NCBI GenBank assembly: GCA_965220085.1 | Contig: CBDCOZ010000003.1 | Location: 704,001-768,000 of the forward strand | Direction: 5' to 3' | From: Candidatus Oxydemutatoraceae bacterium | GTDB taxonomy: Bacteria; Pseudomonadota; Gammaproteobacteria; Poriferisulfidales; Oxydemutatoraceae | Length of the DNA: 64,000 nucleotides | Shown here: piece by piece, positions 944 to 37,003 of the stretch | Numbering within the stretch: position 1 is the stretch's first letter | How the letters are laid out: every line of letters starts with the position of its first letter | The notes under the pieces: model-generated | The model's input: the letters and a program-made list of their open reading frames with translations, nothing else | Told to the model about the DNA's origin: nothing | Databases searched by the model: none | Program-made: the position numbers and the translations under genes

Positions 944-1556
944 CTATCGCAACGGGCCTTCAAGGAAGACGCGCAAGCGCAGGCGCGGGCCCGGAGTGCA
1001 GTTCGGATAGTCGCCGAAGTGCGAAGCCGGATTGCATACGCATTCGGTTTCGCCGTTGAGGTTGTGGGCCGGCGGATAGCTGCCGGGGACTGTGCCACTG
1101 AGGCTACAGTCTGCAACAAAGGCGATTCCGCTGTTTTGGCGGACACGAGGATGGTCCTCCGCTCTTGGAAAAACTGGCGGGTTGCCATATAAGTCTGTGC
1201 AAGTGGGGACGTTTCCGTGTAAGAAGCAGCTATCACTTGCACCTCCTAATATACTGTGTGACGGGATGAGGCAAGACAACTCTAACGACGCAACGCTTGA
1301 CCAGGACCAACCCGCGTCTTCACAGTCCTCCAGAATTGGAATTAGGGCATCGTCAAAGCAACCAGTGTTGGGCAAAGCAGGATCGCTTTGATCCGTAACT
1401 CGCGTTTGCCCTTCGGGGCATTCGGTTTGCGCGTATGCGCTGTTTGCAAATGTGCAAGCAAGTATTACCGCCGCGCAAATTCTAAGCGTAGCGGGGGGGG
1501 GGGGGGGGGGTAGCGGTATTAAAAATTTGTTGGTTCATGATATTTCGTTGATTCAT
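944..1556 (-). CDS. LEGPLR-tail secreted Cys-rich protein 1, frameshifted at poly-C (18 C)
   Basis: AGGAG RBS, ATG 1556 MNQRNIMNQQIFNTATPPPPP then stop; removing one C joins ATLRICAAVILACTFANSAYA|QTECPEGQ to ORF 944..1375 ending PRLRLRVFLEGPLR. Confidence 0.8.
1493..1510 (-). repeat. poly-C tract (18) in signal-peptide coding region
   Basis: G x18 on + strand. Confidence 0.9.
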
Positions 1557-1589
1557 GGTTTTACTCCTGATAAATATATCTGTACAAGC

Positions 1590-1756
1590 AGTATCGCACC
1601 ATACTATAAATTCAGTCATTCACAAGTGCAACCGTTGCTCTCCTCCTCATGGATTTCGTTGCACTGTATCATAAATTCCGTCATTTGCAAGTTTAACTAT
1701 TATTCTCCTCCTATGGGATTCTGTCGCACTATATCACAAGTTCAATCATTTGCAAG
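1590..1756 (-). promoter_or_regulatory. Three tandem sigma70-like promoter units (TTGCAA-N16-TATAGT-like), ~65 bp period
   Basis: Minus strand ttgcaaatgattgaacttgtgatatagt / ttgcaaatgacggaatttatgatacagt / ttgtgaatgactgaatttatagtatggt. Confidence 0.55.
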
Positions 1757-1953
1757 CGCTTTTTTGTCAAGCCTCAACGACCGCCTTCGGCGACCGGTTG
1801 TGTCGTCGTTGCGAGGTGTCGCTATTGCCTGTCGGCCTTTGTTGAAGCCAAGAATCCGGAATGTTTCCGGCATGATTCGGTCATTTGCAAGCGCCTTTTC
1901 ACCCCTTTGTGCGCCCCCTAATATTCCCCGTTCTCCGCCGCAGGATATTCGCG

Positions 1954-3293
1954 CTATCGCAACGGGCCTTCAAGGAAAAGGCGCAACCGCAAGCGCAGGT
2001 ATGGCTGGCGAACGCATTCCGTCGCACCATTCAGATTCGCCCTCGCCGGAATCATGCCCTCCCCGCAGTTGAAAACATACGGCTCCCGAACCGGAATCAT
2101 GTTAAACGCCGCCCTGATTCGCGCGATAATTTCATTGTCGCTTGCCCCGAGGCGCAGCGAAAAGGGAATCCCGTTGTCCCGGAACACTTGTATCAAAATA
2201 AATTCGTTGCCAACTTCGACTTGCAACTGCTCGCGGCTGACTTGACTGATGGCTTCGTTAATATAGTCCGGCTCGCCGTTGTATCGCCCCAAAACCGCAT
2301 TCGCATAAGCCAGCGCCACAGTGCCAAGAGTGTCGCTTCGTCGGAAATTTATCAACTGAAAGCCGTCATAAAGATTTTGCACCAGCGGCGGCAGAGCCGG
2401 CGGAAAGGCGTATTCCTCGCCGAACACATCATCGCACAGAGGCATGTCCGTGCCCGTGCTCGCGATAACAAAGCAGCCGTCATAATCCGTATCCGTCTCG
2501 TCCGAAGTCAGCGGGATTTCGCATTTGATGGGGGTGGTGGTAGTGGAAATAGTCCACCCTTGACTCGTGCATATGCCAACCGCCTCCCGCTGGGCGCGGG
2601 TCAAAGTCGGCGCGGCAACGCAGTCCGGCCATTCGCCGATGTGCGAGTCCAAGTCGCAGGAGCATTCGGTTTCGCCGTTGAGGTTATGGTCGGGCGGATA
2701 GCCGCCGGGGACATTTCCGTCCCGGTCGCAGTTCGCCACAAAAGAATCCCCGCCGGACCCATCAGCTTTAACATTGGTGTGGTCCGCCGCTTTCGGAAAA
2801 ACTGGCGGGTCGCCAAACATATCTGTGCATAACAAAACACTTCTTCCCTCTATGTCGCATATGTCCCCGCTATTCAAGCTGGACCCTGTATACAAAGCGA
2901 CCCCAATCTGACAACCCAATTCTCCAGACGAGATAAACACACTCGTCGAATCCCTGCCCAACCAACCCGCACCTTCACAGTCCTTCAGAATTTCGATTGC
3001 GGCATCGGTAAAACAATTCGTGGCATTGGAGAGGGAGTCTCGGGTTACCCTCGTGACTCGCGTTTCCCCTTCTTCGCAGACATCGTGGCAGGAGCCGAGT
3101 TCGGAAACCATCTCCTGTCCCGCCAGACAGGTTTGCGCTGACGCGTTGTTCGCGGCGAATACAAAAGTAAATACGAGCGCTATCGCCGCACAAATTCGGC
3201 TATTGCGGAGGGAGCACCGCCTGCCCGTTAGGGGGGGGGGGGGGGGGTAGAGGTATTAAAAGTTCTCTGGTTCATGCCATTTTGTCGTTTCAT
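1954..3293 (-). CDS. LEGPLR-tail secreted Cys-rich protein 2, frameshifted at poly-C (17 C)
   Basis: RBS AGGAG, ATG 3293 MKRQNGMNQRTFNTSTPPPPP*; adding one C gives LTGRRCSLRNSRICAAIALVFTFVFAANNASA|QTCLAGQEM in frame with ORF 1954..3111 ending YLRLRLRLFLEGPLR. Confidence 0.8.
3231..3247 (-). repeat. poly-C tract (17) in signal-peptide coding region
   Basis: G x17 on + strand. Confidence 0.9.
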
Positions 3294-3534
3294 AGTATTA
3301 CTCCTGATAAATGTAGTTGTACGGTATATGTACACAAGCTAGTGAGGCACAGTAATAAGAGGCACAAACGGTATGAGAGCACAAACAACTCAGTTGTGTG
3401 TCCTTGATTGTTGTTTGTGCTCCGCAAACTGCTTGCAGATTGTTTGATGTTGCACTATGCCACAGAGTGTCAGTCATTTGCAAATACCTTTGTATCCTGC
3501 GCCTGTGAAGGCTGTTATACGATAAATGTCGCAC

Positions 3535-3666
3535 TATATCACAAGTTCAATCATTTGCAAGCGCCTTTTCACCCCCTTTGTGCGCCCCCTAATATTCCCC
3601 GTTCTCCGTCGTAGGGTACTCGCACTATCGCAACGGCCCTTCAAGGAAAAGGCGCAACCGCAAGGC
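3535..3666 (-). repeat. Orphan LEGPLR tail + hairpin + promoter element heading the left cluster
   Basis: Encodes ALRLRLFLEGPLR* (stop 3625-3627) and the same downstream ~70 bp as 1880-1953, then TTGCAA...TATAGT. Confidence 0.8.
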
Positions 3667-3828
3667 TGTTGCCACAGGCAACGGTGGCACAGCGACCCTT
3701 CCGATGCGGGCGTGGGAAACCGATCCATGAAGCCATCCATCAAAGAGGCGCGCGGCGCGGTGGGTTGTCCGCATTGCCAGCAAAGGAAGGCTACCCGCAA
3801 GGGCAAGCGACTCGGTGATGACCGGCGC

Positions 3829-3996
3829 AAAGCATGCGATACGGAGTTTGCTGTGCGCCGATTCGTTGCGCGGAACAATTTCGCGCGAGGCGCAAAGCAT
3901 GTGATACGGAGTTTGTTGTGCGCCGACACGTGCTTTCGCATGCCACCCCACTCCATTCGAAAGCATGTGATACGGAGTTTGTTGTGCGCCGACACG
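3829..3996 (+). repeat. Three 37-bp direct repeats with unique 28/29-bp spacers
   Basis: aaagcatg(t/c)gatacggagtttg(t/c)tgtgcgccga(ca/tt)cg at 3829, 3894, 3960. Confidence 0.85.
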
Positions 3997-4016
3997 GCAA
4001 ACGATACCGCCGCAGG

Positions 4017-4925
4017 TCATCGGTTATGGCCGGAAGTAATCCCGCGTCTGAGGTTTGAAAACCACCAGAGGGTTATCACGCCGAACCAGATTGCGGCGCC
4101 CCAGCCGATAAACCCGTCGTAATTGCCGATCAGAAATGCGAAATCCGAGTCGGGATTGGCAGCGGTGAACTTTTTATTCAGTTTGACTACGATGATCCAA
4201 CCGCAGTGGACGCCGATGCACGGCATGATGTGGTTTGCCGATAACCTGACAAGCGCAAGAAAAGCGCCCGCCAGGAACAGGGCGGTTGCCGTCTGAATCG
4301 CATCATAAAACCCGTGCTTTTCGCGAATGCCTTCGGCAAGGTTCCATATCCCGGCATACCAAGGCGCGGTCGTGTCGGGCGGCGATTCTTGGATCGCAAT
4401 AAAATGCAGCGCGGCGAACAGCGCGGACGGCAGCAACACGGCCATGACTGTCTGGCCCTTTTTGACGAAGCCGTCCATCAACGCGCCGCGGAAGAAGCAT
4501 TCCTCGATGGTCGCTATCAGCAAAGCGGCCAGAGCTATGCGCGGCAGAGCGGACAGGATTTGGAAGTCTTTGTCCGGGGCGTTCAGGCCTATCATCCAAA
4601 AGAGCATTGCAAGCGTCAGAGCAATGAGGGTGCCGGCGAAGAGACCGGTCAAAAACAAACGCAACGGTTTTGGTTCCGTCTTGATAAAGCCGAACGTTTT
4701 TAACAACGGCAGCTTGCGCGCCTTGAGCGCAAAAACAACAAAGAGGATAATGGACAAGATGATGAGAACTTTTGCGAAGCGGCGAAACTTAATCAGCGAC
4801 TCCAACGCCGTCCATTCGTACAAAGGCCGGGATATTGCGGCGGCGGCGAGGATGGCGATAGCCGTCGTAAAGACCAGAATCAGAAAATGTTTCATGTTGT
4901 GACGAACATTATATCTATCCGACAA
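4017..4925 (-). CDS. CPBP (CAAX/Abi) family intramembrane glutamic protease
   Basis: Multiple TM segments; motifs EECFFRG, SALFAALHF, GVHCGW. Confidence 0.85.
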   Translation of the reverse strand: MSDRYNVRHNMKHFLILVFTTAIAILAAAAISRPLYEWTALESLIKFRRFAKVLIILSIILFVVFALKARKLPLLKTFGFIKTEPKPLRLFLTGLFAGTLIALTLAMLFWMIGLNAPDKDFQILSALPRIALAALLIATIEECFFRGALMDGFVKKGQTVMAVLLPSALFAALHFIAIQESPPDTTAPWYAGIWNLAEGIREKHGFYDAIQTATALFLAGAFLALVRLSANHIMPCIGVHCGWIIVVKLNKKFTAANPDSDFAFLIGNYDGFIGWGAAIWFGVITLWWFSNLRRGITSGHNR

Positions 4926-4992
4926 ATGCGCGCGCGCTCGCGCGGTGTCGCTCGCGCGGTTTGCCCGTCGCTTGGGTTAAGATAGGGGGCAT

Positions 4993-5078
4993 GCGGAAGT
5001 GGCGGAATCGGTAGACGCGCCGGCTTTAGGCGCCGGTGGGCTAGTCCTGTGAGAGTTCGAGTCTCTCCTTCCGCACCA
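4993..5078 (+). tRNA. tRNA-Leu(TAG)
   Basis: GCGGAAG acceptor, anticodon arm ccggc-TTTAGGC-gccgg, long variable arm, TTCGA, CCA end; upstream of tig. Confidence 0.95.
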
Positions 5079-5188
5079 GTTTTTGTGATGCGAGTTACGC
5101 TTTTTATGAGTTTGTTCACAATCGTTATGGCCTGATTGGGTATAATAACCCGCAATATACTATCCCGTTATTCATTCAAGAAGTATTG

Positions 5189-6448
5189 ATGGAAGTTTCA
5201 GTAGAAGATGTAGGCAGTCTGGGGAAGAAGTTGCATATCAGGGTTCCGTTTGCGGAAGTCCGACCGAGATTGAGCGAAGAAGCGCAGAGGATGAGCCGCA
5301 AGGCGCGAGTCGATGGCTTTCGTCCGGGCAAGGCGCCGTTGCGCGTCATAGAACAACGCTTTGGGCGGCAGATTTTTCAGGATGTCGCGAAGGATGTGAT
5401 TCGCGACTCTTATCTGCAGGCCGTGCGCAGCCATAAGTTTCGCCCGACAGGCAATCCGGATTTTGAAGATGTTTCAATGACGCCCGGCGAGGACATACAA
5501 TTTACGGCGAGCATAGAGTTGTACCCGCAGTTTCAAGTCGCGCCGATGGCCGGACATAAAATTGAAAAGCCGGTAGCCGAAGTGGCAGAACAAGATATCC
5601 AAAACATGATAGAACGGGTGAGAAAAAGCCACACGCGGTGGAGCGCTGTCGAGCGGCCGGCCCGCGAGGGCGATCGCCTGACCATACATCTTCAAGACGG
5701 CAACGAGCAGGGGAAAGATCCGCAGGTGGTTCTGGGCGGCGAAGGCGCGGTGGCGGCGGCTTTTACAAAACATCTGGCGGGGGCGCGCAACGGAGAAACG
5801 CGCACGGTTCGCTTGCAGCCCGATGAGACAGGCAAAGAAACGGAATACGAGGCGGAGGTCAAAGCGATTGAGGAGGGGGCTTTGCCGGAATTGGATGATG
5901 ACTTCTTTGCGCTATGCGGCGCAGACGGATTGGACGGTTTGCGGGAGATGCTTGCGAGCGGGATGGAAAAACAATTAAAGAGCAGTTTGGAAAGTATCGC
6001 CAAGACAAAGGTCATGAATGCCTTGTTGGAGCGGAATCCGATAGAATTACCCCGCAGTTTGATTGCGCAAGAGATAGAAGCGATGAGGAATGATTCTGTG
6101 AAACGCTTGAATTTGACCGCCGAGCAGGTTGCCGGCCTATCGGATGACTTGTATCGCGACACGGCGGAACGGCGGGTGAGGCTGAGCTTGCTGTTAAATC
6201 AATTTGCGAGGCAGCATCAACTGGCGGCGGAGCAACAGGCTGTCGAGGCCAAACTGGACGCTATCACGGCGGCTTATGAGGATGCCGAGAATATCAAGCA
6301 ACATTATCGCAATAATTCCGAGGCGCGCTCTGCGCTGGAGGCGATGGCGCTTGAAGATAAGGTGATTGCGGGCATATTGAGCGAGGCCGATGTGTTTGAG
6401 AAGCATTATTCCTTTGATGAAATCCTCGAGCAGGCGGCGGCGCATTAA
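5189..6448 (+). CDS. tig: Trigger factor
   Basis: DGFRPGKAP ribosome-binding motif; precedes clpP. Confidence 0.95.
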   Translation: MEVSVEDVGSLGKKLHIRVPFAEVRPRLSEEAQRMSRKARVDGFRPGKAPLRVIEQRFGRQIFQDVAKDVIRDSYLQAVRSHKFRPTGNPDFEDVSMTPGEDIQFTASIELYPQFQVAPMAGHKIEKPVAEVAEQDIQNMIERVRKSHTRWSAVERPAREGDRLTIHLQDGNEQGKDPQVVLGGEGAVAAAFTKHLAGARNGETRTVRLQPDETGKETEYEAEVKAIEEGALPELDDDFFALCGADGLDGLREMLASGMEKQLKSSLESIAKTKVMNALLERNPIELPRSLIAQEIEAMRNDSVKRLNLTAEQVAGLSDDLYRDTAERRVRLSLLLNQFARQHQLAAEQQAVEAKLDAITAAYEDAENIKQHYRNNSEARSALEAMALEDKVIAGILSEADVFEKHYSFDEILEQAAAH

Positions 6449-6464
6449 CAGAGCATAAGGAAAT

Positions 6465-7070
6465 ATGAACGACAGTCCCGAAATACAAGCACAGTTAATC
6501 CCGATGGTCATCGAGCAAACCTCGCGAGGCGAGCGCGCGTATGACATTTACTCAAGGCTCTTAAAGGAGCGATTGATTTTTATTGTCGGGCCGATCGATG
6601 ATCATATGGCGAATCTCGTTGTTGCGCAGATATTGTTTCTTGAATCGGAAAATCCGAACAAGGATATTTCTCTCTATATCAATTCTCCGGGCGGCTCGGT
6701 GTCCGCGGGGCTCGCAATTTACGATACGATGCAATTCACGACGCCCGATGTCAGCACGATGTGTATCGGGCAAGCCGCCAGCATGGGGGCGGTTTTGTTG
6801 GCCGGCGGCAGACGAGGCAAGCGCTATGCGTTGCCGCATTCGAGGGTTCTGATTCATCAGCCCTTGGGCGGTTTTCAAGGACAGGCGACCGACATTGAAA
6901 TTCATACCAAGGAGATTCTCAAGGTCAGGGAGACGCTCAATACGATATTGGCTTCCCACACCGGTCAAGCGATTGAGACGATTTTGGAGGATACCGAGCG
7001 CGATCGCTTTATGGGGGCGCGGGAAGCATGCGACTACGGCATCATAGATGAGATCATGTCAAAGCGGTAA
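6465..7070 (+). CDS. clpP: Clp protease proteolytic subunit
   Basis: [46 protein letters not shown]. Confidence 0.98.
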
Positions 7071-7173
7071 CGGGAATCGCGGATAGTCCAATGAAACAAA
7101 CGCCATATCACATAGTTCGCTTGCAAAGTTCATGGCTTTATGCTTCCATAGCTTCTCAACAGGGTAAATCCGA

Positions 7174-8454
7174 GTGACTAACGGCAAAGATAACCAAGGG
7201 CAAGGCGAGAAATTACTCCATTGCTCTTTCTGTGGCAAGAGTCAACGCGAGGTTCGCAAGTTGATTGCCGGTCCTTCCATTTTCATTTGCAACGAATGCA
7301 TTGATTTGTGCAATGACGTTCTGGCCGAGGAATATAACGAAGAAGGCGTTGCGGGCGATATGCATATCGCCAATCCGCAGACGATACATCGGGCGCTTGA
7401 CGAATATGTGATCGGCCAAGACCATGCCAAAAAGGTATTGTCGGTCTCGGTGCACAACCATTACAAACGTTTGCAAAGCGCAAAAGACAGCCGCGACGAT
7501 GTGGAGATTTCCAAAAGCAATATTCTTTTGATCGGCCCGACCGGTTGCGGCAAAACATTGCTCGCGCAGACCTTGGCAAAAACACTCAATGTGCCTTTTA
7601 CGATTGCCGATGCGACGACCCTGACCGAAGCGGGGTATGTCGGAGAGGATGTCGAAAATATTATTCAGCGGTTGTTGCAGACCTGCGACTACGATGTCGA
7701 AAAAGCGCAGCGCGGCATCGTCTATATCGACGAGATAGACAAGATTTCCCGCAAATCGGACAACCCGTCGATTACCCGGGACGTGTCGGGCGAGGGGGTG
7801 CAGCAGGCTCTGCTTAAGTTGATCGAAGGGACGGTTGCGTCGGTTCCCCCGCACGGCGGGCGCAAACATCCGCAGCAAGAATTTTTGCAGGTAGATACGA
7901 GCAATATCCTGTTCATTTGCAGCGGCGCCTTTGCCGGTTTGCACAAGGTGGTTCAACAGCGAACCGAGAAAGGCAGCATCGGGTTTTCCGCCGACATAAA
8001 ATCGATTGACGATAGCAAGTCTGTGACGGATATGTTGCGGATGGCAGAAGCGGAAGATCTCATTCGCTACGGTTTGATACCCGAGTTTGTCGGGCGTCTT
8101 TCGGTATCCGCGGTGCTGGATGAGTTGGATCAAGATGCGCTGATTACTATTTTGACCGAGCCTCGCAACGCATTGGTCAAACAATACCGGCATCTTTTTC
8201 GCATGGAAGGCGTCGAACTGGAATTCCAGCACGACGCATTGCTGTCTATCGCGCAGCGGGCGATGAAAAAGAAAGTCGGCGCGCGCGGCTTGCGCGGCAT
8301 CATAGAGGATGTGTTGCTCGATACGATGTACGAGTTGCCGGCCTTATCCAATGTGGAAAAAGTGATTGTTGACAAAGGGGCCGTTGAGAAAAATGGCGCG
8401 CCTATCATGGTTTACAAAGGCGATGACGAAGAGACATACAACAAAGCGGGCTAA
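7174..8454 (+). CDS. clpX: Clp protease ATP-binding subunit
   Basis: CSFCGK zinc finger, [25 protein letters not shown] loop. Confidence 0.98.
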
Positions 8455-8519
8455 GCTTCTCTTGACTATTCGGATTATTCCCATACATAAAGGCTATACA
8501 TTTTCGGAGGCATAGATCT

Positions 8520-10970: not shown

Positions 10971-11177
10971 GGCAGACTGCGTTGCCAAATAACTGAGTTT
11001 TATTCGGTTTTGCCTTGTGATTTGTTATAAAATGCAGGCGGTTAGGTCAACATGCTTCTTTGCCCATGTGCTAGAAACAGGGCGAGGGAAGCAAGAATCC
11101 GGTCGCTAAGCCGGATGTTTTGAGAGGGCAAGTTGACTGTCTTATATATTTTTCTTTATTTATGGAGAGCTATAACA

Positions 11178-11450
11178 ATGAATAAATCCGAACTGATCGA
11201 ATCTATTGCAAATTCCGCGAGTTTGTCAAAGAGTGACGCGACTCGCGCGTTGGAAGCGGTAGTTGACTCTATCACCGGCAGCCTGAAGCAAGGCAACCCG
11301 GTGGCTATAGTCGGCTTTGGGACATTTCTTATCCGCGAGCGTAATGCGCGTATGGGGCGCAATCCGCGAACCGGCGAGACGATTAGCATTGCCGCCAGTA
11401 AGGTCCCCGCTTTTAAGGCAGGCAAAGCCCTGAAGGACGCTTTGCGTTAA
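11178..11450 (+). CDS. hupB: DNA-binding protein HU-beta
   Basis: MNKSELI...GFGTF...GRNPRTGE...[11 protein letters not shown]; after lon. Confidence 0.95.
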
Positions 11451-11466
11451 TACCCGTGCGATTTCC

Positions 11467-11541
11467 GGGTGCTTAGCTCAGCCCGGTCAGAGCGCCGCCC
11501 TTACAAGGCGGAGGTCGGGGGTTCGATCCCCTCAGCACCCA
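11467..11541 (+). tRNA. tRNA-Val(TAC)
   Basis: GGGTGCT/AGCACCC acceptor, ccgcc-CTTACAA-ggcgg; followed by CCG rather than CCA. Confidence 0.93.
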
Positions 11542-23188: not shown

Positions 23189-23190
23189 CT

Positions 23191-29200: not shown

Positions 29201-30073
29201 CCGCAATGCGCCAAAGCAGAAGCGGAATGCGATTGTGATGCCGATAATCCGGGGCTTTCAAGCAGATTGAGTTTTGACCCTGCGCGGGTCATGATTGCAA
29301 CCGGCGCGCGTCCGAAATTTGCCATCTTGCGCGAGCAAGGCATAAACGGTCAAGCGGAAATGGCGGCGGCGTTTGAGCGCGCCGGTTTTGAAGCGTATGA
29401 CGCGCACACCGGCGACTTGCTTGCCGGCAACGTCAATATCAACGCATTTGACGGCTTTGCGGCCTGCGGCGGGTTTTCTTACGGGGATGTATTGGGCGCC
29501 GGCGTCGGTTGGGCGAGTTCAATCCTGCTTCACAGCATGGTTCGGGAGCAGTTTGAAGAATTTTTTATGCGCCCCGACACGCTGGCTCTCGGCGTCTGTA
29601 ACGGTTGTCAGATGATGGCGCATCTGCGCGAGATTATTCCCGGCAGCGAACGCTGGCCGCGGTTTGAACCGAATCTGTCGGGCAGGTTTGAAAGCCGTCT
29701 GACCGGCGTTGAAATCACACCCTCGCCATCGGTCTTTTTGGCCGGGATGGAAGGTTCGCACATCCCGATCGCGGTCGCCCACGGCGAAGGCCGCGCTGTT
29801 TTTGATAGCGCAAAAGATGCGGCGATGAGCGAACAGGTCTGCATGCGCTATATTGATAATCATGGCCGCAGCAACCCGTGCTATCCGTATAACCCGAACG
29901 GCAGTGCGGAAGGCATCACCGGCGTGTGCAACGCGAACGGTCGGGTGACGATCATGATGCCGCACCCCGAGCGGGTGTTTAGAAGCGTGCAGTTTTCCTG
30001 GTGTCCGCCCGAATGGGAAGGCGACAGCCCGTGGATGAAAATGTTTGGGAATGCGCGTAGTTGGTTTGATTGA
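26204..30073 (+). CDS. purL: Phosphoribosylformylglycinamidine synthase (large type)
   Basis: [33 protein letters not shown]. Confidence 0.98.
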
Positions 30074-30156
30074 GATGCCCTATAATACGGGCGCTCCGAA
30101 CGGCCGCTGCTGATTGGCTGCCGGGGCAAGCGCGCACTTTAATTTAAGCAATAGTT

Positions 30157-30741
30157 ATGCCGACCAGAATCCTTGTTCACGCCTTGTGCCTGCTGCCTAT
30201 GATATGGCTGCTCGCCTTGGCATACCGCTCCGGTCTCGGCGCCAATCCGATCGAATACATCACGCGCTACAGCGGCGATTGGACATTGCGCATGCTTTTG
30301 ATCACGCTGACATTCAGGCCTGTCGCGCACATCTTGCGGCGGCCGTTTTTGTTACGCTATCGTCGCGCGGCAGGCCTGTATACTTTTGCCTATGCTTTCA
30401 GCCACTTCACAACCTATCTGTGGCTCGATCAATTCTTTGATTGGTTGTCTATCGTTGAGGATATCGCCGAACGGCCTTTCATACTCGCCGGGTTTACTTC
30501 TTTCGTTCTGATGATACCGCTTGCGCTGACATCCAACGATTGGTCCGTACGGTTGCTACAGAACCGCTGGAAAACACTGCATCGTCTGGTTTATCTGATA
30601 GCGATCGTGGGGCTCGTCCATTATTGGTGGCTGGTGCGGGCCGACTTTTTGAAAGCGTCGGTCTACCTCGTCATGTTGACGATCTTACTCGGCTACAGGG
30701 CATATTTTTCGGTCTTCGTGCGGGAAATTCTCAAGCGGTGA
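30157..30741 (+). CDS. msrQ: Methionine sulfoxide reductase heme-binding subunit
   Basis: GANP, RRAAGLY, PLALTS, WKTLHRLVY..HY.W. Confidence 0.9.
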   Translation: MPTRILVHALCLLPMIWLLALAYRSGLGANPIEYITRYSGDWTLRMLLITLTFRPVAHILRRPFLLRYRRAAGLYTFAYAFSHFTTYLWLDQFFDWLSIVEDIAERPFILAGFTSFVLMIPLALTSNDWSVRLLQNRWKTLHRLVYLIAIVGLVHYWWLVRADFLKASVYLVMLTILLGYRAYFSVFVREILKR

Positions 30742-30993
30742 TAAACGGCTTCCCCTATTTTGCGGTGTCCTCGCTTATACCCTTGCTGGCCCTGCGGCTG
30801 CGCCTTTTCCTTCAAGATCCTTGCAATAATGCGGGTATCCTGCGGCAGAGCAGGGGAGTATTACGGGGCGCAGACAAGGGGAGCGAGGCAGGATATACAG
30901 GCACTTGCAAATGATTGACACTGTGGTATAGTGCGCTAAATGAGGGAAACAATGAACAATTCAACTCTTGTAAATGACTCGCACCTTGTGGCA
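30622..30993 (+). repeat. 372-bp direct repeat copy 1 (msrQ 3' end + degenerate tail/hairpin + promoters)
   Basis: Near-identical to 34886..35257. Confidence 0.9.
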
Positions 30994-31150
30994 CGGCTAT
31001 GTACCACAAACAACATTCATATGTGTGCAAACGATACGAGACCACAAACGATATTTAATCGCTTGTGCTCCATAAACTGTTTGCGGATTGTTTATAATGT
31101 GACTGGTTGCACAACTGTATTCACTAGCTCAGGCGATAAGGAGTAATGCC

Positions 31151-31781
31151 ATGAAACGAAAGATTTATAATACTACCCCCCCCCCCCCCCCCCCGCTGTG
31201 TAAATAAGGGGATTGCGGGCACTTGGCTGTATCGCCTCGCCGCCCGCTTTCTGCAAGCACTTCGCCCCTTCCCGCACTGGCGGGTAACACTAACCCGGCG
31301 TAGCCTCCGAGCACTGGTTCTGCTCGCCCTGCTCACCCTCTGCACTCAAGCGCAGGCGGCCGCGCCGATGATTGATCTGGACAGCATCATAAAAGTTCCC
31401 ATCAACGCAACCGCAGAAAATCCGTACTTCTTCAAAGCATCCGACTTTCCTTTTAGAGATGCCGATGGCGATGAACTGGAAATCGTGCACATACTCGGTG
31501 CCCCTGATGAGTCACAAGGCATATTGAGGGTGGGATCCACCGTTCTGACCGATCAGAATACGGCAGGTGCTGGTTTTGATGTGGCGGTGACCGACATCGG
31601 CACCATAAGCTACTATCCGATAGCGGGCCAATCCCCCAGAGTACACTCCGCCAGCTTTTTGTACTGGGTAACTGCCGGCGGCGACCTGTCCGATACTGGT
31701 GGTAGCATACGCATAGACCTGGTGCCACCACCGACCCTGCGGTTGCGCTTGCGCCTTTTCCTTGAGGGCCCGTTGCGGTAG
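31151..31781 (+). CDS. LEGPLR-tail secreted protein 3 (single cadherin/Ig-like domain), frameshifted at poly-C (19 C)
   Basis: ATG 31151 MKRKIYNTTPPPPPPLCK*; one C fewer gives RCVNKG...HWRVTLTRRSLRALVLLALLTLCTQAQA|AAPM in frame with ORF 31368..31781 ending LRLRLRLFLEGPLR. Confidence 0.8.
31176..31194 (+). repeat. poly-C tract (19)
   Basis: C x19. Confidence 0.9.
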
Positions 31782-31921
31782 TGCGTAGCTACAGCGAGGA
31801 GAGTGTTATGAGGCGCGCAAGAGGATGGAACAGGATACCAAGATACTTATGGACGTCTTTGTGGCGGAAGCGCTCATTGCGCAACCGCCTTCGCGAGACC
31901 CAAACCATAAGGAGAAATGCG

Positions 31922-33532
31922 ATGAACTACGAAATTTTTGATACTGCCCCCCGGCACCGGCAGGCAACGATGACGCGGCGTAGCTTCTGGTTGCCAGTTC
32001 TGCTTGCCCTGTTCGCTGTCTGCGCTCAGGCGCAGGCGCAAAATGCCACCGGCATACCGGCGGTCACCTACGCCAGCGGCATAATCGCTCCCACCGAAGA
32101 TTCCGCCATCACCGCCAACGGCGGCAGCGGTTCCACCGCCATAGCCGACACCGATGGCTTGGGCACTTTCAGTTGGCAGTGGAGTGCGGCCGATACCAAC
32201 GGCGGCGACTACGCCGACATCGCCATGGCGACCAATGCCGCATTCACTCCCGGCGATGATGAGGTGGGCAAGTTCCTGCGGGTCTGCGCATCTTTCAGAG
32301 ATAACGCCGGCAACAACGAGGAGCGATGCCTGCCGATAGCCACCGCCGTGGCCAACATCAACGACAAGCCGGTGCCCGTCGCCAACACAATTTCGGTGAG
32401 CACCACCGCCGATGCCGACAATCCTTATGTCTTCTCTGCGGATGACTTTCCATTCACGGATGTGGACGGCGACATGCTGGCGGGCATCGAAATAGCCGCC
32501 CTGCCAGGAAGAGATTCTACAGCCGGGCCAGGCAGTCCGGGCACCCTGGCATTGAACGGAACGGCCTTGACCGCTGTCCCCGCAAGCACCATCACCGTAG
32601 CCCAACTGGAGGCCGGCGCTCTGACCTATTACCCGCCAGAGGGCGAGCAACCCACCAACCCCAATGACCCCTTTGCCAGATTAGCCTTCTTCGGCTTTGA
32701 TGTGGTGGACGATGGCAGTGATGGCAACACCAACAATGTCAGCAATGTGGGCAGAACCATAGACATACGACTGGTGTCGGTGAATCAGACTGCCGCCAGC
32801 GGCAGACCCAGAATAGTAGTGCTGAATGTTCCCACCGATATCCACACCCACGCTGAGGGCACCCAACTGAGAGCCGACACCAGAGACATCGTTGAACCCA
32901 ACGGCATAGACCGCAGCACTCTGGAGTGGCAATGGCAGTTATCCTCTGTCGGCGATGGTGTCTTTGCCGACATAAGCGGCGCCACCGGAGGCACATTCAC
33001 CCCGGGCCATGCCCATGTGGGCATGCACATCCGCGTCTGCGCCAGTTTTATGGACAATCACGCCATGCCGGAGACTGTGGAAGACCTGTGCTCCGCCTCT
33101 ATCCGGGTGACTAATGCCAACGATGCCCCGGTGGCGCAAGACCACGCTATAAATGTGTCTGTGGATGCCACCATGGCCAACCCCTACGCTTTCAGCACAG
33201 ACGACTTTCCCTTTGACGATGAGGACGATGACAATCTGGCCAGTGTCATTCTGGAATCGTTGCCGCAATCCGGCGCCTTGCGCAACGGCTCCGCCGCCGC
33301 CGCGGTCGGCGATATCATAGCGGCCGATGCTATAGACGATCTGACGTACTATCCGGCCGCCGAGCAGAATGTCCAGACCGGCTACGCAAGATTCGACTTC
33401 AAGGTGACCGACGATGGCAGCGATGGCAGCGACAACAGGACCAGTGCCAACACCGCCGCCATCACCATCAATCTGGTGCCGGCCAACCTGCGCCTGCGCT
33501 TGCGCCTCTTCCTTGAGGGCCCGTTGCGGTAG
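31922..33532 (+). CDS. LEGPLR-tail secreted protein 4 (Ig-like and cadherin-like domains)
   Basis: AGGAG RBS; MNYEIFDTAP...TRRSFWLPVLLALFAVCAQAQA; SWQWS/EWQWQ Ig-like and DFPF.D.D.D.L cadherin-like repeats; tail NLRLRLRLFLEGPLR. Confidence 0.88.
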   Translation: MNYEIFDTAPRHRQATMTRRSFWLPVLLALFAVCAQAQAQNATGIPAVTYASGIIAPTEDSAITANGGSGSTAIADTDGLGTFSWQWSAADTNGGDYADIAMATNAAFTPGDDEVGKFLRVCASFRDNAGNNEERCLPIATAVANINDKPVPVANTISVSTTADADNPYVFSADDFPFTDVDGDMLAGIEIAALPGRDSTAGPGSPGTLALNGTALTAVPASTITVAQLEAGALTYYPPEGEQPTNPNDPFARLAFFGFDVVDDGSDGNTNNVSNVGRTIDIRLVSVNQTAASGRPRIVVLNVPTDIHTHAEGTQLRADTRDIVEPNGIDRSTLEWQWQLSSVGDGVFADISGATGGTFTPGHAHVGMHIRVCASFMDNHAMPETVEDLCSASIRVTNANDAPVAQDHAINVSVDATMANPYAFSTDDFPFDDEDDDNLASVILESLPQSGALRNGSAAAAVGDIIAADAIDDLTYYPAAEQNVQTGYARFDFKVTDDGSDGSDNRTSANTAAITINLVPANLRLRLRLFLEGPLR

Positions 33533-33671
33533 TGCGTAGCCGCGGAGAAGGATAGTTATGAGGCGCACAAGAGGATGGAACAGGATATCAGGATACTTGC
33601 GGATGGCTTTGTGGCGGAAGCGCTCACTGCGCAACCGCATTCACGAGATACAAACCATAAGGAGAAATGCG

Positions 33672-34595
33672 ATGCACTGCCAAATTTTTGATACTGCCCT
33701 CCGGCACTGGCGGGCAACGATGACGCGGCGCAACCTCTGGTCATTGGTTCTGCTCGCCCTGCTCGCTGTCTGCGGTCAGGCGCAGGCGCAAACCGCATGT
33801 CCCCAAGGGCAAACGCGAGTCACGAGTTCGGTCCTTCTGTCCACCGGTTGCTTTGACGATGCCTTAATCCCGATTCTGAATGACTGCAAAAAAGCGGGAT
33901 GGAGAGGCGAGGACGCGGAGGGAGTGTTTCTTAGTCTCGGGGAACTGGCTTGCGAGATTCCTTCGAGTGAAGCAGGTGGCTCCAGTGCGCAATCGTGCTA
34001 CATTGTTTCGGCAATCGGGAGCACCCCGCTCTGCGCAACTATGTATGGCGACCCGCCGGTTTTTCCAAAAGCGGCGGAATATCCTCATGTCCGCCCCGGA
34101 AGCGGACGCACTTTTACCGCAAACTGCGACAATTCGCCCGCCGGCACAACAGTCCCCGGCGGTTATCCGCCGAACCACAACCTCAACGGCGAAACCGAAT
34201 GCTCCTGCGATTTGGATTCGCACATCGGCACATGGCCGAACTGCGTTGCCACGCCGGATTTGACCCGCGCCCAACGGGAGGGGATTGGCACATGCGCGAG
34301 TCGGTGGAGTGTTTCCACCGCCACCGCTTCTATCAAATGCGAAATCCCGCTGACTTCGGGCGGGACGAATTATGACGGTTGCTTTTTTGGCGAGGGCCCG
34401 CCGCGGTGCGCCGATGTGTTCGGCGAAGAATATGCCTTTCCCGATGAAACGCTTCCGGTTCAGGAGCGATATGTTTTCAACTGCGGGGAGGGCATGATTC
34501 CGGCAGGTGCGAATCTGAATGGCGCGACGGAATGCGTGCGCCAACCGTACTTGCGGCTACGGTTGCGTCTTTTCCTTGAGGGCCCGTTGCGGTAG
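33672..34595 (+). CDS. LEGPLR-tail secreted Cys-rich protein 5
   Basis: MHCQIFDTAL...TRRNLWSLVLLALLAVCGQAQA; two NLNG(E/A)TEC-ending modules; tail YLRLRLRLFLEGPLR. Confidence 0.88.
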   Translation: MHCQIFDTALRHWRATMTRRNLWSLVLLALLAVCGQAQAQTACPQGQTRVTSSVLLSTGCFDDALIPILNDCKKAGWRGEDAEGVFLSLGELACEIPSSEAGGSSAQSCYIVSAIGSTPLCATMYGDPPVFPKAAEYPHVRPGSGRTFTANCDNSPAGTTVPGGYPPNHNLNGETECSCDLDSHIGTWPNCVATPDLTRAQREGIGTCASRWSVSTATASIKCEIPLTSGGTNYDGCFFGEGPPRCADVFGEEYAFPDETLPVQERYVFNCGEGMIPAGANLNGATECVRQPYLRLRLRLFLEGPLR

Positions 34596-34770
34596 CGCGA
34601 GTGACCGGCGGCGGAGCAGGGGAGTGTCGTGGGGTGTGCAAGGGTGAGGCAGGTACGGAGTATGTACACAAACAACATTTAATGAGGCACGGTAGTAAGA
34701 GCACAGTGATAAGAGCACAAACAATACTTAATTGTTTGTGGCTTCCTGAGTTGTTTGCGGATTGTTAATT

Positions 34771-34884
34771 GTTTGCGGAGTTTGAAGCGGGTTGTTGATG
34801 GCCGATACGCGGACATTCAATAATTGTCGGATAAAGTATCTGCTATGGTGTAACACCCAACGGCCGCGCTATGGACTGGAACTT
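34771..34884 (+). mobile_element. Degenerate fragment of IS481 transposase 3' region
   Basis: gtttgcggagtttgaagcggg...tatggtgtaacacccaacggccgcgctatgga aligns by eye to 54452-54560. Confidence 0.7.
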
Positions 34885-34885
34885 C

Positions 34886-35257
34886 TATTGGGGGCTGGTA
34901 CGGGCCGATTTTTTGAAAGCGTCGGTCTACCTCGTCATGTTGACAATCTTACTCGGCTACAGGGCATATTTTTCGGTCTTCGTGCGGGAAATTCTCAAGC
35001 GGTGATAAACGGCTTCCCCTATTTTGCAGTGTCCTCGCTTGTGCCCTTGCCGCCCCTGCGCCTGCGCTTTTTCCTTCAAGATCCTTGCAATAATGCGAGT
35101 ATCCTGCGGCAGAGCAGGGGAGTATTACGGGGCGCAGACAAGGGGAGCGAGGCAGGATACCAAGGCACTTGCAAATGACTGACACTGTGGTATAGTGCGC
35201 TAAATGAGGGAAACAATGGACAATTCAACTCTTGTAAATGACTCGCACCTTGTGGCA
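34886..35257 (+). repeat. 372-bp direct repeat copy 2 (msrQ 3' fragment to 35005 + degenerate tail/hairpin + promoters)
   Basis: Near-identical to 30622..30993. Confidence 0.9.
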
Positions 35258-35376
35258 GAGTGCGCCAAATGAGGGAAACAATGGACAACTCAACTTTTAT
35301 AAATGACTCGCACCTTGTGGCAGAGTACACAGCACTAGGCAATCCACAAACAGTTTGTGCCTCACTAAGAAGCCAC

Positions 35377-35513
35377 AAACAACGAATCAAGGACACACAA
35401 ACAACAAATCGAAGATACACAAACAACGAATCAAGGACACACAAACAACGAAGTTGTTTGTGCTTCTTATCATGTGCTTCTTATCATGTGCTTCTTATCA
35501 TGTGCCTCTCATC
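35377..35513 (+). repeat. Short tandem repeats in 5' leader: 22-bp x3.5 and 14-bp x3-4
   Basis: caaacaacgaatcaaggacaca units; tgtgcttcttatca units. Confidence 0.8.
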
Positions 35514-35574
35514 ACTGTGTACATATACCGTGCAACTACATTCACTAGGCACATGCCATAAGGAGTAATAGATT

Positions 35575-37003
35575 ATGAATAGACAAAACTTTAATACTAC
35601 CCCCCCCCCCCCCCCCCCCCCCTCGCTATGTAAATAAGGGGATTGCGGGCACTTGGCTGTATCGCCTCGCCGCCCGCTTTCTGCAAGTACTTCGCTCCTT
35701 CCCACACTGGCGGGTAACACTAACCCGGCTTAGCCTCCGGTCGCTTATTCTGTCGGTCCTGTTTGCCGTCTGCACACCGGCCCAGTCGCACAGCGCCCAT
35801 CCGCCTGGCAACGCAGACCCGACCACGGTTGGTCTGGCCAAACCGTTAGCCCTGAGTAACACCATATTAGTGTTGCAAGATGCTAACGCCGACAACCCGT
35901 ACACTTTCAAGCGGGCCGACTTCGGCTATTCGGATAGCGACCGAGACAGCCTGCAACACATAACCATAAAGAGCCTGCCGGCTCTTGGCACATTGCAGGT
36001 GGACGGCACCGCCGCCACTGAGGAACAGACTGTGGCGCCCGCCGACTTCGGCACCATCACCTGGTATCCGCCGGCAAATGCGTCGGCGAAGATTAGCTAC
36101 ACCAGTTTCACCTACAGCGTCACCGCCGGCAACGAGGAATCCAATTTAGACGCCACCGTGACCATAAATCTTTTATCAACCGAGCAAGTCCCTGCCACCG
36201 GCGCGCCCGAACTGACGAACTCGGAAACTTTCAGCAGTCAGACCACATACAACGATGGCAATAGGCTCCTGATCAGGATTGGGTCTTCGCCTGTCGACCT
36301 CAACGGCATAAACTACGATACTCTGGAATATATATACCAACAGTCCCCCGCCGCAGACGGCACATACGCCACTTTCAGAGGTCCGCTCGGTATAAGAGTG
36401 CGTAATAGCGAAGTATTCATAATCCGGCAGTCCAATGTGGGCCAATACATCCGCGTATGCGTGACCTTTATGGATCTGCACGCCACCCCCAACAGCGAGG
36501 GGCCGCTGTGCTCCGCCGGCGCCCTTGTAACAAATGTGAGCGACCAGCCCGTCGGCGGTGACAGCGTCGTTGAGGTGCCGGTAACTGCCAGTTCCGCCGA
36601 CCCGCACCGCTTTGTGCGGGCGGACTTTCCCTTCAGCGATGCGGATGGCGACACCATCAACGGCATACGCATAACCGCCCTGCCCGCGACGGGCACTTTG
36701 GCGCTGGCGGGCGATGCCGCTTTCACGATAAGCACAGGCACCGAGTTGACACTGGATCAGTTGGATACCTTGGCATACTATCCGGATGCCAATGCTGCCG
36801 TTGGCGCGGGCTATGCGACATTCGCCTACAGAGTGCGGGATACCGGCGATGTCAGCGCCACAGTCCGAAGGTGCACTCCAACGGGCGGGTGTAGATCGAT
36901 CCCCGGCAGCACCAACGAGGCCGCAGCCGATTCCACCCTCACCATAGACTTGGGGGTGATTGCCTTGCGCTTGCGTCTTTTTCTGGAGGGCCCGTTGCGA
37001 TGA
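35575..37003 (+). CDS. LEGPLR-tail secreted protein 6 (cadherin/Ig-like), frameshifted at poly-C (23 C)
   Basis: ATG 35575 MNRQNFNTTPPPPPPPSLCK*; one C fewer joins RYVNKG...HWRVTLTRLSLRSLILSVLFAVC to ORF 35870..37003 ending ALRLRLFLEGPLR. Confidence 0.8.
35600..35622 (+). repeat. poly-C tract (23)
   Basis: C x23. Confidence 0.9.

What the first reader, a model, noticed from the sequence alone, without database searches (positions are those of the whole stretch)
1493..35622. Poly-C switch at the same codon of the first gene behind each promoter; all four read OFF
Seen: tracts of 18 (1493-1510), 17 (3231-3247), 19 (31176-31194) and 23 C (35600-35622) lie just after the N-T-(x)-T motif of the leader. 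In each case the RBS-preceded ATG hits a stop within four codons of the tract. A 1-nt change (17, 18, 18, 22 C) fuses it to a complete signal peptide and passenger. The four downstream genes in the operons have only 3-6 C at the homologous position and are in frame. Established: homopolymer slippage drives phase variation of surface proteins. Inference: each lead gene is a stochastic ON/OFF switch, possibly polar on downstream genes. Caveat: long homopolymers are also error-prone in assembly.
Basis: partly seen in the sequence, partly recalled or inferred. Interest (0 to 1): 0.75.

Follow-up and report, generated by a model that had tools for sequence, protein, structure and literature searches.

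The report
Poly-C on/off switches in surface-protein genes
Four very long runs of C sit at the same spot near the start of four surface-protein genes, each the first gene behind a strong promoter, and most likely act as random on/off switches of a familiar kind, here in a large protein family that no database or searched paper describes.

Summary
The window has exactly four homopolymers of 8 or more bases: 18, 17, 19 and 23 C, at the stated coordinates. Each lies 8-10 codons after a homologous RBS-preceded ATG, just after an N-T-(x)-T motif. Each puts that ATG out of frame, with a stop 0-4 codons later. The other frame then runs unbroken for 182-459 codons through a signal peptide and a folded domain.

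Only the four promoter-proximal genes carry a tract; the four downstream paralogs have 3-6 C.

The genes belong to an undescribed family: 59 of 81 fetched relatives share its tag, nearly all from one 2.05-Mb contig. Members have a Cys-rich or Ig/cadherin-like domain and an invariant 14-residue C-terminal tag, LRLRLRLFLEGPLR. Some paralogs carry the run in frame as 4-8 prolines, and a sister family has its own variable proline run.

Best reading: slipped-strand phase variation, as in Neisseria opa. Tract-length polymorphism could not be tested. "All four OFF" is unremarkable (chance about 0.2) and depends on the assembly's length calls. Polarity on downstream genes is inferred.

The parts
1493..1510 (-). 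Poly-C tract of 18 in the leader of lead gene A1. Out of frame as assembled.
3231..3247 (-). Poly-C tract of 17 in the leader of lead gene A2. Out of frame; TAA follows directly.
31176..31194 (+). Poly-C tract of 19 in the leader of lead gene B1. Out of frame.
35600..35622 (+). Poly-C tract of 23 in the leader of lead gene C1. Out of frame.
944..1556 (-). Lead gene A1, Cys-rich type. ATG at 1556-1554, with a second in-frame ATG at 1538-1536. After the tract, 182 codons are open to the tag and stop. It has its own promoter and no downstream paralog.
1954..3293 (-). Lead gene A2, Cys-rich type. ATG at 3293-3291. After the tract, 424 codons are open to the tag and stop.
31151..31781 (+). Lead gene B1. 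One Ig/cadherin-like beta-sandwich follows an extended leader. After the tract, 194 codons are open.
35575..37003 (+). Lead gene C1, Ig/cadherin-like repeats. After the tract, 459 codons are open.
31922..33532 (+). Downstream gene B2, cadherin-like type. Has 6 C at the homologous site, is in frame, and keeps an internal MTRRS start.
33672..34595 (+). Downstream gene B3, Cys-rich type. The site reads GCCCTCC and is in frame.
37047..38033 (+). Downstream gene C2, Cys-rich type. Has 4 C at the site and is in frame. Lies 43 nt after the stop of C1, with the same RBS as the lead genes.
38077..39687 (+). Downstream gene C3, cadherin-like type. Has 4 C at the site and is in frame.
30905..30932 (+). 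Promoter-like site TTGCAA-16-TATAGT with TG before the second hexamer, upstream of B1.
35169..35196 (+). The same promoter-like site upstream of C1. It is the first unit of a 65-bp tandem array of 2.5 copies at 35168-35326.
3533..3560 (-). The same promoter-like site upstream of A2.
1728..1755 (-). The same promoter-like site upstream of A1, inside a 65-bp tandem array of 2.5 copies at 1594-1756.
30807..30824 (+). Decayed copy of the DNA that encodes the C-terminal tag. It lies after the msrQ stop, opens the conserved promoter-leader block of B1, and is not part of a gene.
35071..35088 (+). Decayed tag copy that opens the block of C1. It lies inside the duplicate of the msrQ 3' end: 34886-35185 is 95% identical to 30622-30921.
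3625..3672 (-). Tag-encoding remnant with a stop codon, heading the block of A2. The ORF 3625-4020 that holds it has no family domain.

Best explanation
Each tract is a hypermutable homopolymer inside the translated N-terminal leader of the promoter-proximal gene of an expression site for a large family of exported surface proteins. The tract lies upstream of the signal-peptide core.

Slipped-strand mispairing during replication adds or removes C's. One length in three reads the run as 5-7 prolines and joins the start codon to the signal peptide, the domain and the C-terminal tag (ON). The other two lengths end translation within a few codons (OFF). The lead genes have no usable start after the tract, so OFF means no exported protein.

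Four independent switches give a population that is mixed for which family members are displayed.

What is shown: position, frames, intact downstream ORFs, restriction to lead genes, in-frame proline runs in paralogs, and a parallel run in a sister family.

What is inferred: slippage itself and its rate, and the surface location of the proteins. Polarity is also inferred. In the two three-gene units (B1-B3, C1-C3), early termination would leave 0.6-1.4 kb of untranslated, C-rich RNA and would lower expression of the downstream paralogs, probably through Rho.
For: - The four tracts are the only homopolymers of 8 or more bases in 64 kb.
- They lie at the same leader position in an alignable block: tag remnant, promoter, 5' UTR, RBS, MNxQxFNT.
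- The frames are as described, and 182-459 codons stay open after the tract.
- A promoter-like site TTGCAA-16-TATAGT with an upstream TG precedes each of the 4 lead genes. The scan found none on the coding strand before B2, B3, C2 or C3.
- Downstream genes have 3-6 C and keep an in-frame ATG (MTRRS...) at the start of the signal-peptide core. B1 and C1 read L at that codon, and A1 and A2 have no start there.
- Of the 81 proteins examined (78 distinct search hits, the three window-encoded ones stored twice), 7 have 4 or more prolines within the first 45 residues. Six of these follow the normal leader (P0012, P0015, P0016, P0029, P0033, P0080). P0052 begins directly at the run, as expected for an OFF allele annotated from an alternative start.
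- Many other relatives are annotated from a Met inside or after the signal peptide, for example P0008, P0010, P0019, P0020, P0032, P0034 and P0035.
- In a sister family, 36 of 104 further relatives share a different C-terminal module. Several have the leader MQRCC-P(n)-RKFEIKFALRR, with a run of 3-8 prolines and two different frames read upstream of the run.
- Relatives P0057, P0066 and P0178 carry PF03797 autotransporter beta-domains at 37, 50 and 39 bits against a cut-off of 26. B1 models as an Ig-like sandwich with mean pLDDT 87. Both fit an exported adhesin-like role.
- Precedent: opa phase variation works through CTCTT repeats in the region that encodes the leader peptide, at about 1e-3 per cell per generation (PMC3960869, passages read). 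Homopolymeric tracts in Bordetella tcfA and bapC vary within single cultures (PMC1891110, abstract).
Against: - No read data and no second genome were available, so no tract has been seen at two lengths at the same locus.
- Tracts of 17-23 are well beyond the lengths I recall for classical contingency loci (about 8-14). Length calls in an assembly are unreliable at that size. If the assembly over-called each tract by one base, three of the four would be ON.
- Runs this long may also slip during transcription or translation, so OFF may be leaky.
- The absence of internal promoters rests on a crude consensus scan. That scan found no more promoter-like sites overall than shuffled sequence did (7 against 6.6, and 5 against 4.2).
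- All four being OFF is expected by chance about one time in five.
Confidence: 0.7

Rival explanations
1. Rheostat, not switch. The runs are so long that RNA polymerase slippage, ribosomal frameshifting on CCC-C, or both restore the frame in a fraction of products whatever the DNA length. The tract would then set a low, graded expression level, further modulated by the EF-P-dependent cost of 5-7 prolines, rather than a binary state.
For: - Three of the four tracts (A1, B1, C1) need the equivalent of a +1 shift. In a C run every frame offers a cognate CCC codon.
- tRNAPro is prone to +1 frameshifting on slippery CCC-C sites (PMC7577736 and PMC4519876, abstracts in the listing).
- Transcriptional slippage produces mixed mRNAs at runs of about 9 A or T and can restore disrupted ORFs (PMC1088944, abstract).
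Against: - The slippage paper I read deals with A and T runs only. Five phrases for G or C runs found nothing in it.
- With normal m1G37 and EF-P, frameshifting at proline codons is low (my recollection, not read here).
- This reading does not explain why only lead genes keep a tract.
- It is compatible with DNA-level switching rather than an alternative to it.
Confidence: 0.2
2. The tracts are real, but their assembled lengths are wrong or are the mode of a mixed culture. 'All four OFF' would then be a property of the assembly and not of the cells.
For: - Homopolymers of 17-23 are hard to size on most sequencing platforms (general knowledge).
- A uniform over-call of one base would put A1, B1 and C1 in frame (derived).
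- The source record is a single 2,046,636-bp contig, which suggests a finished or long-read assembly. Its method is unknown to me.
Against: - No uniform error puts all four tracts in frame.
- Mis-sizing does not remove the tracts or their position, so it changes the reported state and not the mechanism.
- ON and OFF paralogs coexist in the annotated protein set.
Confidence: 0.35
3. The four lead genes are dead. Runaway homopolymers inactivated them, and the family is expressed only from tract-free copies.
For: - All four are out of frame.
- One relative with an in-frame run, P0029, has a further frameshift in its body and lacks the tag, so some copies do decay.
Against: - All four keep 182-459 stop-free codons, an intact signal peptide and a perfect tag after the tract.
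- They sit behind the only strong promoter-like sites of the loci.
- The tract-free downstream genes have no promoter-like site of their own in that scan.
Confidence: 0.05

Closest known systems
Neisseria opa genes (CTCTT repeats in the region that encodes the leader peptide)
   Same: Both are multigene families of surface proteins. In both, a simple repeat inside the leader/signal-peptide coding region shifts the frame, so each copy switches ON or OFF on its own and the population is mixed (PMC3960869, passages).
   Different: - The repeat here is a homopolymer of 17-23 C read as polyproline, not a pentamer.
- The proteins are unrelated: Cys-rich or Ig-like domains with a 14-residue tag, not 8-stranded barrels.
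- Only promoter-proximal copies carry the tract. Tract-free paralogs lie downstream in the same unit.
Homopolymer switches in Neisseria pilC (poly-G in the signal-peptide region) and nalP (poly-C). Both are recalled, not read here.
   Same: A G or C homopolymer inside the 5' coding region of an exported protein gates translation.
   Different: As I recall them, those tracts are about 8-14 long, lie in single genes, and are not part of a promoter-leader cassette shared by paralogs.
Homopolymeric tracts in Bordetella autotransporter genes tcfA and bapC
   Same: These are G/C homopolymers in genes for exported proteins, and they vary in length within single cultures (PMC1891110, abstract).
   Different: They lie in different proteins, at different positions in the gene, and in classical autotransporters that have their own barrel.
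Classical (type Va) autotransporters
   Same: There is an N-terminal signal peptide with an extension, followed by repeated adhesin-like domains. Relatives P0057, P0066 and P0178 have the same domains followed by a PF03797 beta-domain.
   Different: The window's eight genes end in the 14-residue tag directly after the last domain and have no beta-domain. How they cross or attach to the outer membrane is unknown.

Membership tests
Simple-sequence-repeat contingency locus (translational phase variation) | A long homopolymer or repeat lies inside the 5' coding region. | tested here: met
   Tracts of 17-23 C begin 8-10 codons after the homologous ATG.
Simple-sequence-repeat contingency locus (translational phase variation) | A change in repeat number toggles between a full-length ORF and early termination, and the downstream ORF is otherwise intact. 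| tested here: met
   Stops come 0-4 codons after the tract in the start frame. The adjacent frame stays open for 182-459 codons.
Simple-sequence-repeat contingency locus (translational phase variation) | Repeat number is polymorphic at the same locus within a culture or between isolates. | not testable with these tools
   There are no reads. The only evidence is indirect: paralogs with in-frame runs of 4-8 prolines and a sister family with runs of 3-8.
Simple-sequence-repeat contingency locus (translational phase variation) | High-frequency, reversible ON/OFF switching of the phenotype. | not testable with these tools
   This needs culture work.
Type Va autotransporter | A C-terminal beta-barrel translocator domain (PF03797). 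| tested here: not met
   None of the family genes scanned hit PF03797, and none hit any NCBIfam autotransporter model. Three relatives from other contigs do hit PF03797.
Extended signal peptide region of type V proteins (ESPR; Pfam accession PF13018 recalled) | The N-terminal extension matches the ESPR model. | tested here: not met
   Full leaders were included in the Pfam scan (for example 36960-38033 and 31781-33532) and none matched ESPR at E up to 0.01. The MNxQI/F-N-T opening only looks similar.
C-terminal sorting signals cut by CPBP (Mrt-type) intramembrane proteases (MYXO-, JDVT-, Synerg-CTERM) | A tripartite C-terminal signal (motif, transmembrane helix, basic cluster) together with a cognate Mrt protease. 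| tested here: not met
   The tag is 14 residues of alternating Leu/Arg followed by FLEGPLR, with no hydrophobic helix. The neighbouring CPBP protein at 4017-4925 scores 38 bits against MrtS, far below the 130-bit cut-off. No C-terminal-signal model hit any family gene.
Neisseria Opa family | An Opa-type outer-membrane barrel protein with CTCTT repeats. | tested here: not met
   No Pfam or NCBIfam hit of that kind was found, and the repeat is a homopolymer. The resemblance is one of mechanism only.

The most novel reading that the evidence does not exclude
The tract may be more than a frame switch. It would be the 3' edge of a portable expression cassette made of a tag remnant, tandem strong promoters, a 5' UTR, an RBS and MNxQxFNT-C(n). 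The cassette would gate whole arrays of otherwise silent paralogs. When translation stops just after the run, the naked poly(C) RNA would load Rho and shut the operon. The homopolymer may also serve as the joint at which the cassette is recombined onto different gene bodies.

The family itself, with at least 59 tagged members, would use the invariant 14-residue tag LRLRLRLFLEGPLR in place of an autotransporter barrel. That would imply a shared partner acting in trans that exports or anchors many different domains, which would be an undescribed route.
Probability: 0.15. Interest if true: 0.8.

Novelty: new member of a known kind. Interest (0 to 1): 0.5.

Why it matters
If the tracts switch as proposed, a bacterium with a genome of about 2 Mb spends several percent of it on a variable coat. 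At least 59 tagged paralogs exist, nearly all on one contig. A few promoter-leader switches would decide which paralogs are displayed. That is typical of organisms under immune, phage or grazing pressure.

For annotation, these genes are not pseudogenes. Their 'truncated' protein entries that begin after the signal peptide are artefacts of phase.

The less ordinary part is the family itself. It has a Cys-rich domain found in only 114 of 1.84 billion protein clusters, with no match among solved structures. It also has an invariant C-terminal tag where relatives have an autotransporter barrel. Finding what reads that tag could reveal a new way of exporting or anchoring surface proteins.

Tried and rejected
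- **Related loci.** The search for related loci with the family alignment matched 17 stretches, of which 1 was a relative, and returned 0 loci. Orthologous tracts in other genomes therefore stayed unchecked, and so did the closed metagenome and viral collections.
- **Organism.** It was not identified. clpX is 69% identical in DNA to E. coli, and the gene order is tig-clpP-clpX-lon ... ppiD. Both fit a proteobacterium outside the Enterobacterales. No over-represented uptake-sequence-like word turned up. An IS481-type transposase searched against plasmids gave identities of 41-44% among the 15 records listed, which says nothing.
- **Protein atlas.** No usable hit.
- **Leader-only search.** P0080 residues 1-80 found only itself.
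- **Family libraries.** Pfam and NCBIfam hold no family for the genes. There are only sub-threshold cadherin-like and ZirU hits.
- **Fold search.** The Cys-rich model (pLDDT 71) had 0 PDB matches at E up to 0.001. The Ig-like model also had 0 at that level; its best matches, at 3e-3 to 3e-2, are pilus adhesins and cadherins.
- **Rfam.** Only tRNAs in the window, and nothing in the 5' UTRs. The B1 5' UTR folds no better than shuffles, z = -0.04. I dropped the idea of a riboswitch-like leader.
- **C-rich RNA downstream of the tracts.** The excess of C over G is largely the tract itself, so it adds little to the Rho idea.
- **Cassette boundary at the tract.** Identity between the A-type and B/C-type genes is 67-70% in the 60 nt upstream and 56-61% in the 90 nt downstream. 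This is suggestive only.
- **Tag as a DNA-level repeat.** Rejected as the main cause of its conservation. Codons vary synonymously while the residues stay invariant.
- **Papers.** 'FLEGPL' searched anywhere in the text found 0 papers. Searches on poly-C, signal peptide and paralogous families returned only known systems.

Full report
**1. The observation**

A search for twelve consecutive C's on both strands found 33 overlapping matches. They collapse into four tracts: 1493-1510 (18, C on the minus strand), 3231-3247 (17, minus), 31176-31194 (19, plus) and 35600-35622 (23, plus). Shuffled sequence gave 0.02 matches on average. A scan for C/G runs of 7 or more and A/T runs of 9 or more found nothing else except a G7 at 37540-37546. 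So these four are the only long homopolymers in 64 kb of about 55% G+C.

**2. Frames**

Each tract follows an ATG preceded by AGGAG. From that ATG the products are:
- A1: MNQRNIMNQQIFNTATPPPPPRYA*
- A2: MKRQNGMNQRTFNTSTPPPPP*
- B1: MKRKIYNTTPPPPPPLCK*
- C1: MNRQNFNTTPPPPPPPSLCK*

In a neighbouring frame the sequence stays open from the tract to the normal stop, for 182, 424, 194 and 459 codons. It encodes a classical signal peptide (for example ...LRICAAVILACTFANSAYA/QTECPEG and ...RRSLRALVLLALLTLCTQAQA/AAP) followed by the body of the protein.

There is no ATG, GTG or TTG in the ON frame between the preceding stop and the tract. The first internal starts lie after the signal peptide. As assembled, none of the four can give an exported product.

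Any out-of-frame tract is one base from an in-frame one. Four of four OFF has probability of about 0.2 under random phase.

**3. Anatomy of the loci**

The four lead genes share an alignable upstream block. In order it contains:
- a copy or decayed remnant of the DNA that encodes the family's C-terminal tag;
- a conserved spacer;
- a promoter-like site, TTGCAA-16-TATAGT, with TG before the second hexamer (30905-30932 and 35169-35196 on the plus strand; 3560-3533 and 1755-1728 on the minus strand);
- at two loci, a tandem array of 2.5 copies of a 65-bp unit that holds this site (1594-1756 and 35168-35326);
- a 5' UTR of 200-350 nt rich in CACAAAC/GTTTGTG repeats;
- the RBS and the leader MNxQxFNT.

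The tract comes next. The shared codon position is therefore inherited with the cassette and did not arise four times.

A1 and A2 each stand alone behind their own block. B1 is followed by B2 and B3, and C1 by C2 and C3. The consensus scan found no promoter-like site on the coding strand between these genes. That scan is crude, and overall it found no more sites than in shuffles.

The C unit begins with a 300-nt duplicate, 95% identical, of the msrQ 3' end plus the promoter that precedes B1. B and C are therefore tandem duplicates of one expression site lying between msrQ and glyA.

At the homologous leader position the downstream genes have 6, 3, 4 and 4 C and are in frame. They also keep an in-frame ATG (MTRRS/MTWRS...) that opens the signal-peptide core. 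B1 and C1 read Leu at that codon, and A1 and A2 have no start there. Translation of the lead genes therefore has to pass through the tract. The split of 4 of 4 lead genes against 0 of 4 downstream genes has a one-sided exact probability of 1/70.

**4. What the genes are**

Pfam and NCBIfam give no family, only sub-threshold cadherin-like and ZirU matches.

All eight genes end in LRLRLRLFLEGPLR followed by a stop (A1 has V for the last L of the repeat). The codons differ synonymously between copies (CTG/TTG/CTA, CGC/CGG/CGT, GAA/GAG, TAG/TGA) while the residues do not. The tag is therefore conserved as protein.

There are two body types. A1, A2, B3 and C2 have a Cys-rich domain. B1, B2, C1 and C3 have Ig/cadherin-like repeats.

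Two searches of the 5.8-billion-protein collection found 28 and 55 relatives. Of these, 25 and 30 come from one contig of 2,046,636 bp, a few come from contigs of 215,991 and 230,214 bp, and the rest come from small unnamed contigs. One search examined 81 stored proteins: 78 distinct hits, with the three window-encoded ones (C2, B3, B2) stored twice. Of the 81, 59 end in the tag.

A profile of the Cys-rich type matched only 114 clusters among 1.84 billion. Of the 104 new proteins, 7 carry the tag.

The Cys-rich model (mean pLDDT 71) has no match among solved structures at E up to 0.001. B1 models with mean pLDDT 87 as a beta-sandwich. Its best matches, all weak, are pilus adhesins and cadherin domains. 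In both models the tag is left unstructured.

Three relatives (P0057, P0066, P0178) have the same domains followed by an autotransporter beta-domain above Pfam's cut-off. The family therefore looks like exported adhesin-type domains that have a 14-residue tag where relatives have a barrel. They are not autotransporters by the defining feature.

**5. Evidence that the run is a switch and not a lesion**

First, the long intact frames after the tract are not what decayed genes would keep.

Second, 7 of the 81 proteins examined have four or more prolines in their first 45 residues.
- Six follow the normal leader, for example MKRKTFNTTPPPPPLKI..., MKLRITNTTPPPPPPSHRR..., MNRQIINITPPPPTALRI..., MNHKILNIDTPPPPPTPH... 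and MNRQDFNTTPPPPPPPRYV....
- So the run is read as 4-8 prolines when in frame, and its length differs between copies.
- The seventh, P0052, begins MLILPPPPPPP, which is the ON frame annotated from just before the run. That is what an OFF allele looks like to a gene caller.
- Many further relatives are annotated from a Met inside or after the signal peptide, which is the expected footprint of out-of-frame leaders. I could not see their DNA.

Third, a sister family has a different conserved C-terminus (...NRKALNPFFCGEKCG..C). It accounts for 36 of the 104 new hits. Its leader, MQRCC-P(n)-RKFEIKFALRR, has runs of 3, 4, 5 and 8 prolines or interrupted versions, and different copies read two different frames upstream of the run. 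A homopolymer at a fixed leader position thus recurs in a second lineage of the same domain superfamily.

**6. Mechanism**

The best-supported reading is slipped-strand mispairing at the C run. It gives reversible frame changes in the leader, as established for the CTCTT repeats in the leader-peptide region of opa genes (PMC3960869, passages). The same is established for homopolymers in Bordetella genes for exported proteins, which vary within single cultures (PMC1891110, abstract). I put this at 0.7. Slippage itself was not observed here.

Polarity is an inference. In OFF phase, ribosomes stop within four codons of the run. That leaves 0.6 kb (B1) or 1.4 kb (C1) untranslated upstream of genes that have no promoter-like site of their own. 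Poly(C) is the classical best activator of Rho (textbook knowledge, not tested here). My C/G window count adds little, because the signal is the tract itself.

**7. Rivals**

(a) Leaky rheostat. In a C run every frame is CCC, and tRNAPro is prone to +1 shifts at CCC-C (PMC7577736 and PMC4519876, abstracts in the listing). Three of the four tracts need exactly a +1 shift. RNA polymerase slips at runs of about 9 A or T (PMC1088944, abstract), but the paper I read says nothing about C runs. This can coexist with DNA switching (0.2).

(b) Mis-sized tracts. This is likely for at least one of the four tracts at these lengths (0.35). It alters the reported state and not the mechanism. A uniform over-call of one base would make three of the four ON.

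(c) Dead genes (0.05). The intact frames and the promoters argue against it.

**8. Comparison, novelty and what stayed open**

In mechanism this is a contingency locus of the opa / pilC / nalP kind. The last two are recalled, not read here. It differs in several ways:
- the very long tract;
- its translation as polyproline in an N-terminal extension;
- its restriction to the promoter-proximal gene of units whose downstream paralogs lack it;
- the protein family.

I file it as a new member of a known kind.

The family, its tag and the Cys-rich domain are in neither Pfam nor NCBIfam. The string FLEGPL occurs in none of the roughly 8.4 million texts searched.

Several things stayed open:
- The organism was not identified.
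- Orthologous loci, the rest of the genome, and the metagenome and viral collections stayed unchecked.
- I did not read supplements of any paper.

Noticed in passing
944-991, 1954-2001, 31734-31781, 33485-33532, 34548-34595, 36956-37003, 37986-38033, 39640-39687: All eight family genes end in an invariant 14-residue tag, LRLRLRLFLEGPLR (A1 has one V). Codons vary synonymously between copies. 59 of 81 relatives, and 7 of 104 more, carry the tag. AlphaFold leaves it unstructured. Relatives elsewhere have an autotransporter barrel at that place. Its function is unknown; it may be a docking or anchoring signal.
   Followed up: partly
protein library, e.g. P0088, P0104, P0108, P0119, P0137, P0175, P0176: A sister family shares the Cys-rich domain. 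It ends in a conserved ...NRKALNPFFCGEKCG..C module, and its leader is MQRCC-P(n)-RKFEIKFALRR with 3-8 prolines and frame changes around the run. This looks like a second poly-C leader switch in another lineage. Some members exceed 5,000 residues, with up to 31 domain copies.
   Followed up: partly
30622-30921 and 34886-35185: A 300-nt direct repeat, 95% identical, covers the 3' end of msrQ and the promoter. The B and C units are therefore tandem duplicates of one expression site. 34762-34857 also resembles 39782-39877 upstream of glyA (78%).
   Followed up: yes
35374-35519, and the corresponding parts of 30990-31110 and 3340-3450(-): The 5' UTRs of the lead genes are full of CACAAAC / GTTTGTG repeats (22-bp and 14-bp tandem arrays). 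They contain a hairpin followed by a U-rich stretch at 35440-35462, which looks like a terminator. The whole B1 UTR folds no better than shuffles, and there is no Rfam match.
   Followed up: partly
4017-4925 (-): A CPBP/Rce1-like intramembrane protease lies directly upstream of locus A. Proteases of this class process C-terminal sorting signals in other systems. This one scores far below the cut-offs of the Mrt models, and the tag lacks a transmembrane segment. The link is unproven.
   Followed up: partly
54638-56404 with 56407-57153 (-); 58988-60853 with 60850-61551 (-): Two proteins fuse a LexA DNA-binding domain and an S24 peptidase to a DNA methyltransferase (D12 class and N6_N4 class). 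Each lies next to a restriction endonuclease gene (EcoRV-like and MvaI/BcnI-like). They sit in a low-G+C island (41-46%) with a GmrSD-like gene at 51088-52824.
   Followed up: no
58634-58723 and 61894-61983 (-); 53128-53213 (-): tRNA-Ser(tga) is present twice about 3.3 kb apart, flanking one of the restriction-modification units. A weak tRNA-like match lies at 53128-53213. This suggests islands inserted at tRNA-Ser. 103-bp and 40-bp tandem repeats follow at 61994-62264.
   Followed up: no
47637-48009: A tandem array of 5.7 copies of a 66-bp unit (85% matches) overlaps an ORF on the minus strand (47700-48392) that has no family assignment.
   Followed up: no
3-461 (-) and 564-734: A partial ORF at the window edge looks to me like an IS1595-type transposase (my reading of the translation; no library scan was run). 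It is followed by 21-, 33- and 42-bp tandem repeats just downstream of gene A1.
   Followed up: no
63113-63643: An ORF of 176 codons is built of 11-, 22- and 45-bp tandem repeats (TGCAGTCCGCA-like units). It has no Pfam or NCBIfam match.
   Followed up: no
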